This document shows, piece after piece, positions 14,143 to 64,000 of a DNA stretch of 64,000 bases. The notes beneath the pieces were generated by a model, which did not search any database, was not told where the DNA came from, and saw only the letters and a list, made by a program, of their open reading frames with translations. Position 1 is the first letter of the stretch. The number at the start of each line of letters is the position of its first letter. Source of the stretch: the human T2T-CHM13v2.0 reference genome, Homo sapiens; the NCBI RefSeq assembly GCF_009914755.1, contig NC_060926.1; one strand, given 5' to 3'. The position numbers and the translations under genes were made by a program.

Positions 14143-17100
14143 AGAGGGGTGGGGCCAAGATGGCCGAATAGGAACAGATCCCATCTACAGCTCCCAGCAT
14201 GAGAGACACAGAAGATGGGTGATTTCTGCATTTCCATCTGAGGTACCCGGTTCATCTCACTAGGGAGTGCCAGAGAGTGGGTGCAGGACAGTGGGTGCAG
14301 TGCACTGTGTGTGAGCCGAAGCAGGGCGAGGCATTGCCTCACTTGGGAAGTACAAAGAGTCAGGGAGTTCCCTTTCCTAGTCAAAGAAAGGAGTGACAGA
14401 CAGCACCTGGAAAATCAGGTCACTCCCACCCTAATACTGCGCTTTTCCAAGGGGCTTAAAAAATGGCACACCAGGAGATTATATCCTGCACCTGGCTCGG
14501 AGGGTCCTACACCCATGGAGTCTTGCTGATTGCTGGCACAGCAGTCTGAGATCAAACTGCAAGGTGGCAGAGACGCTGGGGGAGGGGCGTGTGCCATTGC
14601 CCAGGCTTGCTTAGGTAAACAAAGCAGTAAGGAACCTCGAACTGAGTGGAGCCCACCACAGCTCAAGGAGGTGTGCCTGCCTCCATAGGCTCCACCTCTG
14701 GGAGCAGGGCACAGACAAACAAAAAGACAGCAGTAACCTCTGCAGAATTAAATGACCCTGTCTGACTGACAGCTTTGAAGAGAGTAGTGGTTCTCCCAGC
14801 ACGCAGCCGGAGATCTGGGAACGGGCAGACTGCCACCTCAAGTGGGTCCTTGACCCCCGAGCAGCCTAACTGGGAGGCACCCCCTAGTGGGGGCAGACTG
14901 ACACCTCACACGGCCGGGCACTCCTCTGGGACAAAACTTCCAGAGGAACGATCAGGCAGCAGCATTTGTGGTTCACCAAGATCTGCTGTTCTACAGCCAC
15001 CGCTGTTCTGCAGCCACCACTGCTGATACCCAGGAAAACAGGGTCCGGAGTGGACCTCTAGCAAACTCCAACAGACCTGCAGCTGAGGGTCCTGTCTGTT
15101 AGAAGGAAAAGTAACAAACAGAAAGGACATCCACACCAAAAACCCTTCTGTACGTCACCATCATCAAAGGCCAAAAGTAGATAAAACCACAAAGATGGGG
15201 AAAAAACAGAGCAGAAAAGCTGGAAACTCTAAAAAGCAGAGCGTCTCTCCTCCTCCAAAGGAATGCAGCTCCTCACCAGCAATGGAACAAAGCTGCACGG
15301 AGAACGACTTTGACGAGTTGAGAGAAGAAGGCTTCAGACGATCAAACTACTCTGAGCTACAGGAGGAAATTCAAACCAAGGGCAAAGAAGTTAAAAACTG
15401 TGAGAAAAAATTAGACGAATGGATAACTAGAATAACCAATGCAGAGAAGTCCTTAAAGGAGATGACGGAGCTGAAAGCCAAGGCTCGAGAAATACGTGAA
15501 GAATGCAGAAGCCTCGGGAGCCAATGTGATCAACTGGAAGAAAGGGTATCAGTGATGGAAGATGAAATGAATGAAATGAAGTGAGAAGGAAAGTTTAGAG
15601 AAAAAAGAATAAAAAGAAATGAACAAAGCCTCCAAGAAATATGGGACTATGTGAAAAGACCAAATTTACGTCTGATTGGCATACCTGAAAGTGATGGGGA
15701 GAATGGAACCAAGTTGGAAAACACTCTGCAGGATATTATCCAGGAGAACTTCCCCAATCTAGCAAGGCAGGCCAACATTCACATTCAGGAAATACAGAGA
15801 ACGCCACAAAGATACTCCTCGAGAAGAGCAACTCCAAGACACATAATTGTCAGATTCACCAAAGTTGAAATGAAGGAAAAAATGTTAAGGACAGCCAGAG
15901 AGAAAGGTCGGGTTACCCACAAAGGGAAGCCCATCAGACTAACAGCAGATCTCTCGGCAGAAACTCTACAAGCCAGAAGAGAGTGGGGGCCAATATTCAA
16001 CATTCTTAAAGAAAAGAATTTTCAACCCAGAATTTCACATCCAGTCAAACTAAGCTTCATAAGTGAACGAGAAATAAAATACTTTACAGAGAAGCAAATG
16101 CTGAGAGATTTTGTCACCACCAGGCCTGTCCTAAAAGAGCTCCTGAAGGAAGCACTAAACATGGAAAGGAAAAACCGGTACCAGCCACTGCAAAAACATG
16201 CCAAAAAGTAAAGACCATCAATGCTAGGAAGAAACTGCATCAACTAATGAGCAAAATCACCAGCTAACATCATAATGACAGGATCAAATTCACACATAAC
16301 AATATTAACTTTAAATGTAAATGGGCTAAGTGCTCCAATTAAAAGACACAGACTGGCAAATTGGATAAAGAGTCAAGACCCATCAGTGTGCTGTATTCAG
16401 GAAACCCATCTCAAATGCAGAGACACACATAGGCTCAAAATAAAGGGATAGAGGAAGATCTACCAAGCAAATGGAAAACAAAAAAAGGCAGGGGTTGCAA
16501 TCCTGGTCTCTGATAAAACAGACTTTAAACCAACAAAGATCAAAAGAGACAAAGAAGGCCACTACATAATGGTAAAGGGATCAATTCAACAAGAAGAGAT
16601 AACTATCCTAAATATATATGCACCCAATACAGGAGCACCCAGATTCATAAAGCAAGTCCTTAGTGACCTACAAAGAGACTTAGACTCCTACATAATAATA
16701 ATGGGAGACTTTAACACCCCACTGTCAACATTAGACAGATCAACGAGACTGAAAGTTAACAAGGATACCCAGGAATTGAACTCAGCTCTGCACCAAGCAG
16801 ACCTAATAGACATCTACAGAACTCTCCACCCCAAATCAACAGAATATACATTTTTTTCAGCACCACACCACACCTATTCCAAAATTGACCACATAGTTGG
16901 AAGTAAAGCTCTCCTCAGCAAATGTAAAAGAACAGAAATTATAACAAACTGTCTCTCAGACCACAGTGCAATCAAACTAGAACTCAGGACTAAGAAATTC
17001 ACTCCAAACCACTCAACTACATGGAAACTGAACAACCTGCTCCTGAATGACTACTGGATACATAACGAAATGAAGGCAGAAATAAAGATGTTCTTTGAAA

Positions 17101-61432: not shown

Positions 61433-64000
61433 GGGGGTGGAGCCAAGATGGCCGAATAGGAACAGCTCCAGTCTACAGCTCCCAGCGTGAGCGACACAGA
61501 AGACGGGTGATTTCTGCATTTCCATCTGAGGTACCGGGTTCATCTCATTAGGGAGTGCCAGACAGTGGGTGCAGGACAGGGGGTGCAGCGCACCATGCGC
61601 CAGCCGAAGCAGGGCGAGGCATTGCCTCACTCAGGAAGGGCAAGGGGTCAGGGAGTTCCCTTTCCTAGTCAAAGAAAGGGGTGACAGATGGCACCTGGAA
61701 AATCGGGTCACTCCCAGCCTAATACTGCGCTTTTCAAACAGGATTAAAAAATGGCACACCAGGAGATTATATCCCGCACGTGGCTCAGAGGGTCCTACGC
61801 CCACGGAGGCTTGCTGATTGATGGCACAGCAGTCTGAGATCAAACTGCAAGGTGGCAGTGAGGCTGGGGGAGGGGCGCCTGCCATTGCCCAGGCTTGATT
61901 CGGTAAACAAAGCAGCCAGGAAGCTCGAACTGCGTGGAGCCCACCACAGCTCAAGGAGGCCTGCCTGCCTCTGTAGGCTCCACCTCTAGGGGCAGGGCAG
62001 AGACAAACAAAAAGACAGCAGTAACCTCTGCAGACTTAAGTGTCCCTATCTGGCAGCTTTGAAGAGAGTAGTGGTTCTCCCAGCACACAGCTGGAGATCT
62101 GAGAATGGGCAGACTGCCTCCTCAAGTGGGTCCCTGACCCCAAAGCAGCCTAACTGGGAGGCACCCCCCAGTAGGGGCAGACTGACACCTCACACGGCCG
62201 GATACTCCTCTGAGACAAAACTTCCAGAGGAACAATCAGGCAGTAGCATTTGCTGTTCACCAAGAGCCACTGTTCTACAGCCACCGCTGTACTGCAGCCA
62301 CCACTGCTGATACCCAGGCAAGCAGGGTCTGGAGTGGACCTCTAGCAAACTCCAACAGACCTGCAGCTGAGGGTCCTGTCTGTTAGAAGGAAAACTAACA
62401 AACAGAAAGGACATCCACACCAAAAACTCTTCTGTACGTCACCATCATCAAAGGCCAAAAGTAGATAAAACCACAAAGATGGGGAAAAAACAGAACAGAA
62501 AAACTGGAAACTCTAAAAAGCAGAGCGCCTCTCCTCCTCCAAAGGAACGCAGCTCCTCACCACCAATGGAACAAAGCTGGACGGAGAATGACTTTGACGA
62601 ATTGAGAGAAGAAGACTTCAGATGATCAAACTACTCTGAGCTACAGGAGGAAATTCAAACCAATGGCAAAGAAGTTAAAAACTTTGAAAAAAATTAGAAA
62701 AATGGATAACTAGAATAACCAATGCAGAGAAGTCCTTAAAGGAGCTGATGGAGCTGAAAGCCAAGGCTCGAGAACTACGTGAAGAATGCAGAAGCCTCAG
62801 GAGCCGATGCGATCAACTGGAAGAAAGGGTATCAGTGATGGAAGATGAAATGAATGAAATGAAGGGCGAAGGGAAGTTTAGAGAAAAAAGAATAAAAAGA
62901 AACAAACAAAGCCTCCAAGAAACATGGGACTATGTGAAAAGACCAAATCTACATCTGATTGGTGTACCAGAAAGTGATGGGGAGAATGGAACCAAGTTGG
63001 AAAACACTCTGCAGGATATTATCCAGGAGAACTTCCCCAATCTAGCAAGGTAGGCCAACATTCAGATTCAGGAAATACAGAGAATGCCACAAAGATAATC
63101 CTCGAGAAGAGCAACTCCAAGACATATAATTGTCAGATTCACCAAAGTTGAAATGAAGGAAAAAAATGTTAAGGGCAGTCAGAGAGAAAGGTCAGGTTAC
63201 CCACAAAGGGAAGCGCATCAGACTAACAGCGGATCTCTCGGCAGAAACTCTACAAGCCAGAAGAGAGTGGGGGCCAATATTCAACATTCTTAAGGAAAGA
63301 ATTTTAAACCCAGAATTTCATATCCAGCCAAACTAAGCTTCATAAGTGAAGGAGAAATAAAATACTTCACAGACAAGCAAATGCTGAGAGATTTTGTCAC
63401 CACCAGGCCTGCCCTAAAAGAGCTCCTGAAAGAAGTGCTAAACATGGAAAGGCACAACCAGTACCAGCCGCTGCAAAATCATGCCAAAATGTAAAGACCA
63501 TCGAGACTAGGAAGAAACTGCATCAACTAATGAGCAAAATAACCAGCTAACATCATAATGACAGGATCAAATTCACACATAACAATATTAACTTTAAATG
63601 TAAAGGGACTAAATGCTCCAATTAAAAGACACAGACTGGCAAATTGGATAAAGAGTCAAGACCCATCAGTGTGCTGTATTCAGGAAACCCATCTCACCTG
63701 CAGAGACACACATAGGCTCAAAATAAAGGGATAGAGGAAGATCTACCAAGCAATGGAAAACAAAAAAAGACAGGGGTTGCAATCCTAGTCTCTGATAAAA
63801 CAGACTTTAAACCAACAAAGATCAAAAGAGACAAAGAAGGCCATTACATGATGGTAAAGGGATCAATTCAACAAGAAGAGCTAACTATCCTAAATATATA
63901 TGCACCCAATACAGGAGCACCCAGATTCATAAAGCAAGTCCTGAGTGACCTACAAAGAGACTTGGACTCCCACACAATCATAATGGGAGACTTTAAAACC
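61433..64000 (+). mobile_element. L1PA (L1PA4/5-like), copy 5, 5' part only; continues beyond the window; ORFs disrupted
   Basis: GGGGGTGGAGCCAAGATGGCCGAATAGG, long-form 5'UTR, ORF1 ATG at 62479 with stops, ORF2 EN start at 63558. Confidence 0.97.

What the first reader, a model, noticed from the sequence alone, without database searches (positions are those of the whole stretch)
14700..63740. Reticulate sharing of private variants among the five L1s that no single tree explains
Seen: copies 3+4 share AATGGATATGGAATAAAT (32670, 43512) and NPTVS. Copies 2+4 share AAAAGTGAC (about 19297, 46490) and GCAGAATTAAATG (14742, 42086). Copies 4+5 share GGCAGAGAC (42052, about 61996). Copies 2+5 share the TAG stop in GGGATAGAGG (16445, 63728) and a duplicated GCTGTTCT.CAGCCACC motif in the 5'UTR (about 14985, 62270). 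Copies 1+3 share CTGAGACC, and copies 1+2 share CATTTCATGA. Copies 1+2+3 share AGAAACAGAACC (HRN). Copies 2+3+4 share ACAGTCACC and GGAAAAA (ERKN). These partitions conflict with each other. Inference: repeated short-tract, multidirectional exchange over 10-50 kb, probably also involving L1s outside the window.
Basis: partly seen in the sequence, partly recalled or inferred. Interest (0 to 1): 0.75.

Follow-up and report, generated by a model that had tools for sequence, protein, structure and literature searches.

The report
Neighbouring L1 copies exchanged sequence patches
Five separately inserted L1 retrotransposons within about 64 kb of human chromosome 2 share rare variants that unlinked L1 copies lack, which is best explained by old copying of short patches between neighbouring repeats, a known process rarely shown this clearly for L1.

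Summary

**The elements.** The window holds five same-strand L1PA copies. c1 is 5'-truncated. c2 to c5 are full length, and c5 runs 3.6 kb past the window. The four full-length copies have distinct target-site duplications and belong to at least three subfamily tiers.

**c2 and c3 (16 kb apart).** They share a tract of about 560-800 bp. Two of its marker words occur only in these two copies in the 3.1-Gb genome. In that tract c3 jumps into c2's older clade, so c2 was the donor.

**c3 and c4 (11 kb apart).** They share a 3-substitution cluster carried by 2 of 2217 genome copies of that word.

**All copies, L1 positions 900-6161.**
- 25 states are carried by two or more window copies and by none of 41-68 unlinked copies.
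- Random 5-sets of 19 unlinked copies give a mean of 4.5 and a maximum of 15.
- 24 of the 25 are not CpG-type.
- One state is in four copies and one is in all five.

The 5'UTR duplication and most c2+c5 states are subfamily features.

**Verdict.** This is old non-allelic gene conversion among neighbouring L1s, a new instance of a known process. A T>G excess among the shared states is unexplained.

The parts
3340..6198 (+). L1 copy c1, 5'-truncated (L1 positions about 3320-6160), intermediate-type
   Evidence: BLAST to c3 at 94.5% over 2886 nt. Shares rare states with c3 (positions 3662, 4836), with c2+c3 (3869), with c2 (CATTTCATGA), and 5530 G with all copies.
14148..20322 (+). L1 copy c2, full length, older subfamily tier. 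Donor of the c2-to-c3 tract.
   Evidence: Old-type diagnostic states. 17-nt 5'UTR duplication shared with relatives of c5. Target-site duplication (TSD) CTCAGGGGTA at 14133 and 20324.
30516..36676 (+). L1 copy c3, full length, intermediate tier. Recipient of the c2 tract. Shares a 3-nt cluster with c4.
   Evidence: TSD AAAGAATTTTAC at 30497 and 36671.
41494..47523 (+). L1 copy c4, full length, youngest tier. Lacks about 128-129 nt of the 5'UTR (junction after 42266).
   Evidence: One search gives many 97% full-length hits. The deletion is shared by 3 of 3 relatives and measures 128 c3 bases. 20-nt TSD at 41464 and 47525.
61436..64000 (+). L1 copy c5 (continues to 67608 beyond the window), full length, older tier
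   Evidence: TSD AGAAAGGCCTGGATGC at 61417 and 67611.
15666..16222 (+). Donor side of the c2-to-c3 conversion tract (minimal extent, L1 1507-2063; maximal 15452-16247)
   Evidence: Shared states are absent from the 41 unlinked copies compared at those sites. The 29-mer and 35-mer marker words have 2 genome hits each, c2 and c3 only.
32022..32578 (+). Recipient side of the c2-to-c3 conversion tract (minimal extent; maximal 31808-32603)
   Evidence: Run of 16 c2c3|c4c5 sites. Block tree places c2+c3 as sisters, support 0.978, inside the old clade, while the flanks place c3 with intermediate copies. c2 is the best genome-wide hit of 31879-32579. c3 carries old-type states at 2037 and 2064.
32674..32682 (+). 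c3 side of the c3/c4 three-substitution cluster (L1 2159, 2161, 2167), inside a 166-nt run identical to c4 (between the mismatches at L1 2091 and 2258, about 32607-32772)
43516..43524 (+). c4 side of the same cluster
   Evidence: The 26-mer has 2 genome hits, both here. The degenerate word has 2217 hits.
14728..14754 (+). 5'UTR word with A at L1 601, shared by c2 and c4 (c4: 42072-42098)
   Evidence: 0 of 13 panel copies. 17 genome hits.
42045..42072 (+). 5'UTR word with G at L1 566, shared by c4 and c5 (c5: 61989-62016)
   Evidence: 0 of 13 panel copies. 9 genome hits.
35276..35276 (+). L1 4761 C, carried by c2 (18927), c3, c4 (46120) and c5 (66202, outside the window) but not by c1
   Evidence: 0 of 58 unlinked copies.
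36045..36045 (+). L1 5530 G, carried by all five copies (c1 5556, c2 19696, c4 46893, c5 66966 outside the window)
   Evidence: 0 of 47 unlinked copies. The variant 13-mer is in 0 loci and the common one in 41.
34384..34384 (+). L1 3869 G, carried by c1 (3917), c2 (18035) and c3
   Evidence: 0 of 58 unlinked copies.

Best explanation
After five L1PA elements had inserted independently, at different times but in the same orientation, DNA breaks in one copy were repeatedly repaired using a neighbouring copy 11-47 kb away as template. This is non-allelic (interlocus) gene conversion without crossover. Each event copied a short patch, carrying the donor's private mutations into the recipient.

**Shown.**
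- One tract of about 560-800 bp went from c2 into c3.
- A patch of at most 166 bp links c3 and c4.
- There is a 5- to 6-fold excess of exclusively shared single states across most other pairs.

**Inferred.**
- The DNA-to-DNA break-repair mechanism itself.
- The great age of the events. c2 and c3 have since gained 4 and 9 private changes in the 701-nt block.
- Very short tracts for the single-site cases.
- Possibly a GC bias that helped some variants reach four or five copies.
For: **Independent insertions.**
- c2, c3, c4 and c5 each have a different target-site duplication.
- They differ by subfamily indels: a 17-nt duplication, a 7-nt duplication and a deletion of about 129 nt. Each indel is shared with that copy's own unlinked relatives.

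**c2 to c3 tract.**
- 16 consecutive c2c3|c4c5 sites, against a permutation maximum of 13 in 20,000.
- States at 1507, 1521, 1623, 1886 and 1909 are in 0 of 41 unlinked copies.
- The two marker words have 2 hits each in 3.1 Gb.
- c2 is the best genome hit for c3's block, 1161 against 1125 bits.
- In the block c2+c3 are sisters with support 0.978. In the flanks c3 sits with intermediate copies and c2 with c5.
- In the block c3 carries old-type states, and its nearest unlinked copies are relatives of c5.

**c3 and c4.** Only 2 of 2217 genome copies carry the G-T-A cluster, and they lie 10.8 kb apart.

**Set-level test.**
- 25 exclusive shared states, against a mean of 4.47 and a maximum of 15 in 11,628 random 5-sets.
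- For the four full-length copies, 21 states against a maximum of 11 in 3,876 random 4-sets.
- Exclusive triples: 3 events in 10 window triples, against 8 events in 969 random triples.

**Alignment-free check.** At 24 of 24 sites the variant 13-mer is in 0 unlinked loci, while the common 13-mer is in 19-60 loci.

**Not CpG-driven.** 24 of the 25 states are not CpG-type.
Against: - Around the single-site cases the two copies are identical for only 18-118 nt. This is not longer than at random positions, so there is no tract signature there.
- There is no local dip in divergence around the 4-copy and 5-copy variants.
- No distance decay is seen (Spearman -0.2, P 0.58).
- One unlinked pair (L033-L039) shares 4 doubletons in a small panel. 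Subfamily structure can therefore mimic sharing when the panel is thin.
- The random panel contains no copies of the old c2/c5 tier, because the word used to pick it excludes them. Outside L1 900-2450 and 3200-5100, states involving c2 or c5 could be old-tier states rather than private ones.
- The single-site 5'UTR variants recur elsewhere in the genome, with 9 and 17 hits.
- The copies are only 94-96% identical, a range in which conversion is expected to be slow (abstract of bioRxiv 10.1101/135152).
Confidence: 0.82

Rival explanations
1. The shared states are inherited. They mark small L1 sub-subfamilies or polymorphic source elements, so the conflict reflects a reticulate history of L1 master lineages rather than exchange at this locus.
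For: - Many c2+c5 against c3+c4 sites are subfamily states: 1234-1292, 2286, 3220, 3263, 3837, 4852, 5014, the 17-nt and 7-nt duplications, and the 129-nt deletion.
- An unlinked pair shares 4 doubletons.
- c2+c5+L055 share 5 sites in the 3'UTR.
Against: - The multi-variant words are found only in the two neighbours in the whole genome. The positive control finds 2217 copies of the common form.
- Carriers belong to different tiers with their own diagnostic indels.
- The closest relatives of each copy lack the states.
Confidence: 0.05
2. The single-site sharings are parallel mutations at hypermutable L1 positions, perhaps favoured by a regional mutational process. Only the c2-c3 and c3-c4 cases would then be true exchange.
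For: - There is no tract signature around the single sites.
- The 566-G and 601-A words recur 9 and 17 times genome-wide.
- The odd T>G excess, 7 of 25, could hint at a particular mutational process.
Against: - The states are absent from 41-68 unlinked copies at the same positions.
- Window-random pairs show no excess, with a ratio of 0.63.
- Window singletons show no T>G excess, 4.4%.
- After removing c2-c3 and c3-c4, the other 8 pairs still have 11 events where about 2.7 are expected (Poisson P about 1e-4).
- 24 of the 25 states are not CpG-type.
Confidence: 0.08
3. The exchange went through RNA or cDNA. Either template switching occurred during the insertion of c3, or a cDNA from a transcribed neighbour converted a resident copy, rather than DNA-to-DNA repair between neighbours.
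For: - The c2-c3 event looks about as old as c3 itself. c3's singleton density is 0.0128 per nt in the block and 0.0107 outside it.
- cDNA-mediated conversion is documented for yeast Ty and Tf2 (text of PMC6598467).
Against: - The patch is internal, with c3-type sequence on both sides.
- At least eight different pairs are involved, all of them neighbours.
- A cDNA route gives no reason for the partners to be linked.
- c2 carries premature stops; one example is the TAG at L1 2291.
Confidence: 0.05

Closest known systems
Non-allelic gene conversion among neighbouring Alu elements (Aleshin and Zhi 2010; Zhi 2007), as described in the text of PMC6598467 and in passages of PMC8230782
   Same: Excess sharing of non-diagnostic variants between nearby copies of a dispersed retrotransposon. 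Mosaic copies mix diagnostic states of different subfamilies.
   Different: For Alu the effect is reported within about 10 kb. Here the partners are 6-kb L1s 11-47 kb apart and only 94-96% identical. One tract is longer than a whole Alu, and single variants reach four and five copies.
Interlocus gene conversion in segmental duplications and duplicate genes (abstract of Harpak et al., bioRxiv 10.1101/135152; passages of Vollger et al. 2023, PMC10172114)
   Same: Unidirectional copying of short tracts, with a mean of 250 bp in Harpak et al. GC bias. Slowing as copies diverge. An excess of G/C transversions attributed to biased conversion.
   Different: Those paralogues arise by DNA duplication and are mostly 98% or more identical. 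Here the paralogues are independent retrotransposon insertions of different ages.
LTR-LTR non-allelic conversion on the human Y (Trombetta et al. 2016), seen only as described in PMC6598467
   Same: Clusters of derived alleles transferred between dispersed retroelement copies, giving a complex mosaic pattern.
   Different: That case was detected as polymorphism among men. The events here are old, fixed and inferred from one genome.
Ordinary L1PA subfamily succession, including the ZNF93-evading 129-bp 5'UTR deletion of L1PA3 and younger families (passages of PMC7110667)
   Same: Explains the c2+c5 against c3+c4 partition, the 5'UTR indels and c4's short 5'UTR.
   Different: Cannot explain states confined to neighbours of different tiers, or c3's switch of clade inside the block.
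Burton et al. [quoted passage not shown]
   Same: An early proposal that resident L1 copies can be overwritten by other L1 sequence.
   Different: The paper was not read, so no comparison was possible.

Membership tests
Non-allelic (interlocus) gene conversion between dispersed repeats | Donor and acceptor are distinct loci that did not arise by duplicating one another | tested here: met
   Four different target-site duplications. Only L1 sequence is repeated between the loci. Different subfamily indels.
Non-allelic (interlocus) gene conversion between dispersed repeats | A contiguous tract where the acceptor carries donor-specific variants, flanked by sequence with a different history | tested here: met
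   Met for c2 to c3: a run of 16 sites and a block tree that disagrees with the flank tree. Met for c3/c4: 3 variants inside a 166-nt identical run. Not met for the single-site cases.
Non-allelic (interlocus) gene conversion between dispersed repeats | Shared variants are not explained by common descent from a source element | tested here: met
   Whole-genome word counts of 2, 2 and 2, against 2217 for the control. 0 of 41-68 panel copies carry the states.
Non-allelic (interlocus) gene conversion between dispersed repeats | Excess over unlinked controls | tested here: met
   25 exclusive states, against a mean of 4.47 and a maximum of 15. Scaled ratios of 4.16 against 0.63 and 0.79.
Non-allelic (interlocus) gene conversion between dispersed repeats | The acceptor's pre-conversion state is visible in an outgroup species or haplotype | not testable with these tools
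   No other primate or human assembly was available.
Non-allelic (interlocus) gene conversion between dispersed repeats | Rate falls with distance between copies | tested here: inconclusive
   10 pairs, Spearman -0.20, P 0.58.
GC-biased gene conversion | Transferred variants are enriched for weak-to-strong changes relative to the mutation spectrum | tested here: inconclusive
   Weak-to-strong against strong-to-weak is 13:7 among shared states and 78:109 among singletons (Fisher P 0.058). T>G is 7 of 25, against about 5% (P 2e-4).
L1PA3-or-younger (ZNF93-evading short 5'UTR), for copy c4 | 129-bp deletion in the 5'UTR | tested here: met
   128 c3 bases are missing in c4. The deletion is shared by 3 of 3 relatives of c4. 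The feature is as described in passages of PMC7110667. No RepeatMasker or Dfam name was available, so the subfamily names of all five copies are inferred.

The most novel reading that the evidence does not exclude
L1-dense, gene-poor regions may behave as small concerted-evolution networks. Biased non-allelic conversion would then move derived weak-to-strong variants, especially T>G, between independently inserted L1s of different ages over tens of kilobases. It would do so often enough that single variants reach four or all five copies and at least about 15 separate events are visible in 30 kb of L1. If this is general, it creates 'regional L1 haplotypes', distorts L1 ages and subfamily calls, and gives a direct read-out of ancient ectopic repair.
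Probability: 0.3. Interest if true: 0.65.

Novelty: new member of a known kind. Interest (0 to 1): 0.45.

Why it matters
- L1 ages, subfamily calls and source-offspring inference all assume that copies evolve independently after insertion. This locus shows that assumption failing at measurable scale for elements only 94-96% identical and up to 47 kb apart.
- The whole-genome word test used here needs only one complete assembly and could be run genome-wide. It asks whether a multi-variant word is found only in two neighbours.
- The T>G excess, and the variants present in four and five copies, offer a handle on conversion bias outside segmental duplications.
- The process itself is already known for Alu elements, LTRs and segmental duplications.

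Tried and rejected
**Rejected explanations.**
- Segmental duplication or assembly artefact. The copies have distinct target-site duplications and only L1 sequence is repeated between them.
- CpG homoplasy. 24 of the 25 exclusive states are not CpG-type.
- The old L1 fragment at 7347-8125 as donor of 5530 G. It has T at that site.
- The shared states as ancestral states of older L1 families. Only one very old fragment (L053) overlapped. It has the common state at 4761, 5135 and 5530, and the variant state at 4836, 5289 and 5692, so this is inconclusive.

**Checks that gave nothing.**
- A recalled PRDM9-type motif gave 1 match, with 0.49 expected.
- A simplified PHI-type statistic is only modestly significant (P 0.017).
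- The distance trend is null.
- A GENECONV-style test of identical-run length around single sites is null.

**Not run.** GENECONV itself, split networks, and comparison with L1PA2-6 consensuses. No consensus library was at hand and none was built, so unlinked genomic copies were used instead.

**Data limits.**
- L053 was dropped from the random panel. It failed to align and is a much older L1.
- Panel A (L002-L030) turned out to consist of young, c4-like copies, so it cannot show old-tier states.
Smaller requests followed.
- As a result there is no unlinked panel for L1 1-520. Old-tier relatives are lacking for 2450-3200 and 5100-6161.

**Literature searches.**
- For L1-specific neighbour conversion, one search used five phrases and found 1 paper, which held only a reference entry.
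- Searches found reviews on Alu, LTR and segmental-duplication conversion but no systematic L1 study.
- Subscription journals are not covered by these searches.

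
Full report
**What is there.** The window (human chr2, T2T-CHM13) holds five L1PA copies, all on the + strand.
- c1: 3340-6198, 5'-truncated.
- c2: 14148-20322.
- c3: 30516-36676.
- c4: 41494-47523.
- c5: 61436 onward.

After fetching 3.8 kb beyond the window, c5 proves full length and ends at 67608. Pairwise differences are 3.9-6.0%.

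**Independent insertions of different ages.** c2, c3, c4 and c5 each have their own target-site duplication.

In the 5'UTR:
- c2 and c5 carry a 17-nt duplication. It is also present in 4 of 4 unlinked relatives of c5 and 1 of 3 relatives of c2.
- c3 and c4 carry a 7-nt duplication shared with their relatives.
- c4 lacks 128 nt, as do 3 of 3 of its relatives.

The last feature matches the 129-bp ZNF93-evading deletion described for L1PA3 and younger families (passages of PMC7110667). Diagnostic sites give three tiers: old (c2, c5), intermediate (c3, probably c1) and young (c4). Subfamily names were not assigned by any tool.

**The conflict is real and spatially structured.**
- Where four copies overlap, c2c5|c3c4 has 30 sites, c2c3|c4c5 has 30 and c2c4|c3c5 has 10.
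- Sixteen consecutive informative sites between L1 positions 1364 and 2064 all support c2c3|c4c5 (L1 position = c3 coordinate minus 30515).
- In 20,000 permutations the longest such run was 13.
- A PHI-type statistic gives P 0.017.

**The c2-to-c3 tract.** I fetched L1 900-2450 from 20 unlinked elements, the best full-length genome matches of c2, c3, c4 and c5.
- Inside the block c2 and c3 share states that those 20 copies lack or nearly lack. Positions 1507, 1521, 1623, 1886 and 1909 are 0 of 20. Positions 1522 and 2063 are 1 of 20. Position 1932 is 2 of 20.
- On both sides of the block c2 keeps old-tier states and c3 keeps intermediate-tier states.
- Two words spanning these variants, of 29 and 35 nt, each occur exactly twice in the 3.1-Gb genome, in c2 and c3.
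- With c3's block as query, c2 is the best hit among the 40 candidates scored out of 4353, at 1161 bits against 1125 for the next.
- A tree of the block makes c2+c3 sisters, support 0.978, inside the old clade. A tree of the flanks puts c3 among intermediate copies and c2 with c5.
- In the block c3 carries old-type states at 2037 and 2064, and its nearest unlinked copies are relatives of c5. c2 was therefore the donor.

The tract spans at least 1507-2063 (557 nt) and at most about 1293-2088. c2 and c3 still differ at 23 of 701 positions in the block, and have 4 and 9 private changes there. The event is therefore old, perhaps not much younger than c3 itself.

**c3 and c4.** Both carry three substitutions within 9 nt (L1 2159, 2161, 2167), inside a 166-nt run in which they are identical.
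- The 26-mer occurs twice in the genome, in c3 and c4.
- The same word with the three positions left degenerate occurs 2217 times. This serves as positive control and denominator.

**Set-level test against unlinked copies.** The 2217 control places provided an unbiased sample. I took every fifth of the first 100 places on chromosome 1 and fetched L1 900-6180. Nineteen of the 20 aligned. L053 is a far older L1 and was dropped.

Panel A (29 young copies), panel B (20 copies) and panel C (10 relatives of c2 and c5 covering L1 3200-5100) were added. I then counted states carried only by a given set of copies.
- Pair-exclusive states: 20 in 10 window pairs, 31 in 95 window-random pairs, and 75 in 171 random-random pairs.
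- Scaled by each copy's private divergence, the ratios are 4.16, 0.63 and 0.79.
- Twenty-five states are carried by two or more window copies and by nothing else.
- All 11,628 five-sets of the random copies give a mean of 4.47, an SD of 2.40 and a maximum of 15.
- For the four full-length copies the count is 21, against a maximum of 11 in 3,876 sets.

Pairs involved:
- c2-c3: 7.
- c2-c5: 3.
- c4-c5: 3.
- c1-c3, c3-c4 and c3-c5: 2 each.
- c2-c4: 1.

Larger sets: c2c3c4 (2013), c1c2c3 (3869), c2c3c5 (5289), c2c3c4c5 (4761) and all five copies (5530).

A c1-c2 state lay in columns lost to a c3 deletion. It is also absent from unlinked loci, with 0 against 51 for the common word.

An alignment-free check agrees. 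At 24 of 24 sites the variant 13-mer is in no unlinked locus, while the common 13-mer is in 19-60 loci.

The design is conservative, because panels A to C are enriched for relatives of the window copies.

**5'UTR.** A 13-copy panel was available for L1 520-930 only. Within 50 nt, three different pairs each share a state absent from all 13 copies:
- 554 A in c3+c5.
- 566 G in c4+c5.
- 601 A in c2+c4.

Genome-wide, the 566-G word has 9 hits and the 601-A word has 17. These are rare recurrent variants, not unique ones.

**What is ordinary.** The following are subfamily states:
- The c2+c5 duplication.
- Most c2+c5 against c3+c4 sites: 1234-1292, 2286, 3220, 3263, 3837, 4852 and 5014.
- The 3'UTR sites shared with L055.

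GGAAAAA/ERKN is a private deletion in c1.

**Weak points.**
- Around the single-site cases the identical run between partners (18-118 nt) is no longer than at random positions.
- There is no local dip in divergence near 4761 or 5530.
- There is no distance trend.
- The random panel lacks old-tier copies, because the picking word excludes their variant. Outside L1 900-2450 and 3200-5100, states involving c2 or c5 may be old-tier states. When c3 or c4 also carries them, that still implies transfer.
- L1 1-520 has no panel.

**Mechanism.** The best reading is non-allelic gene conversion: a break in one L1 repaired from a neighbouring, same-orientation L1 without crossover.
- The tract lengths fit published values, with a mean of 250 bp. 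So do the slowing with divergence and the GC bias (abstract of bioRxiv 10.1101/135152).
- The same kind of neighbour effect is reported for Alu within about 10 kb (text of PMC6598467; passages of PMC8230782).
- The break-repair mechanism is inferred, not shown.

**Unexplained.**
- Seven of the 25 shared states are T>G. T>G is about 5% of singletons (P 2e-4) and 5 of 84 control-shared states (P 0.005).
- Window singletons show no such excess.
- Weak-to-strong changes outnumber strong-to-weak 13 to 7, against 78 to 109 among singletons (P 0.058).
- Vollger et al. attribute an excess of G/C transversions in segmental duplications to biased conversion (passage of PMC10172114). That may apply here but is untested.
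- L1 1995-2170 is a focus of exchange. It holds the end of the c2-to-c3 tract, the c3/c4 cluster, a patch of younger-type states in c5 (1995-2166), and 2013 A and 2099 C shared by c2, c3 and c4.

**Verdict.** This is a clear, multi-partner instance of a known process rather than a new kind of system.

Noticed in passing
Outside the window: G000 C11:22649387 and C11:22773031: Of the 7 other genome copies carrying the rare 566-G 5'UTR word, two lie 124 kb apart on the same strand of chromosome 11. This may be a second case of neighbour sharing, or a segmental duplication.
   Followed up: no
window 63616 (c5 query position about 2180): Twenty of the 43 other matches of c5's first 2565 nt stop at query position 2179-2181, just after the variable spot at L1 2159-2167. 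The cause was not established. It could be an alignment break or a real boundary in c5.
   Followed up: no
c5 63437-63608 (L1 about 1995-2166): c5, otherwise old-tier, carries younger-type states at 1995, 2028, 2037, 2064 and 2166, flanked by old-type states at 1292 and 2286. It is probably another converted patch whose donor is not identified. c4 differs from c5 at 2028 and 2099.
   Followed up: partly
window 3340-64000: All five L1PA copies lie in the same orientation. The chance of this is 1 in 16. Direct orientation also permits deletion or duplication by unequal crossover between them.
   Followed up: no
window 7347-8125: An older L1 3' end is present as two adjoining pieces in opposite orientation (83-87% identical to c3), so it is an internally inverted fragment. 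It has the common T at L1 5530.
   Followed up: partly
L053 (G000 C1:41856465-41861747): One of the 2217 places matching the 26-nt control word lies in a much older L1 (about 70-75% identical to c3). The word is therefore not confined to young L1PA families.
   Followed up: partly
c2 16445 and c5 63728 (L1 2291): The TAG stop shared by c2 and c5 in ORF2 is also present in one unlinked relative of c5 (L032), giving 1 of 65 panel copies. It is rare, but not exclusive to the window.
   Followed up: yes
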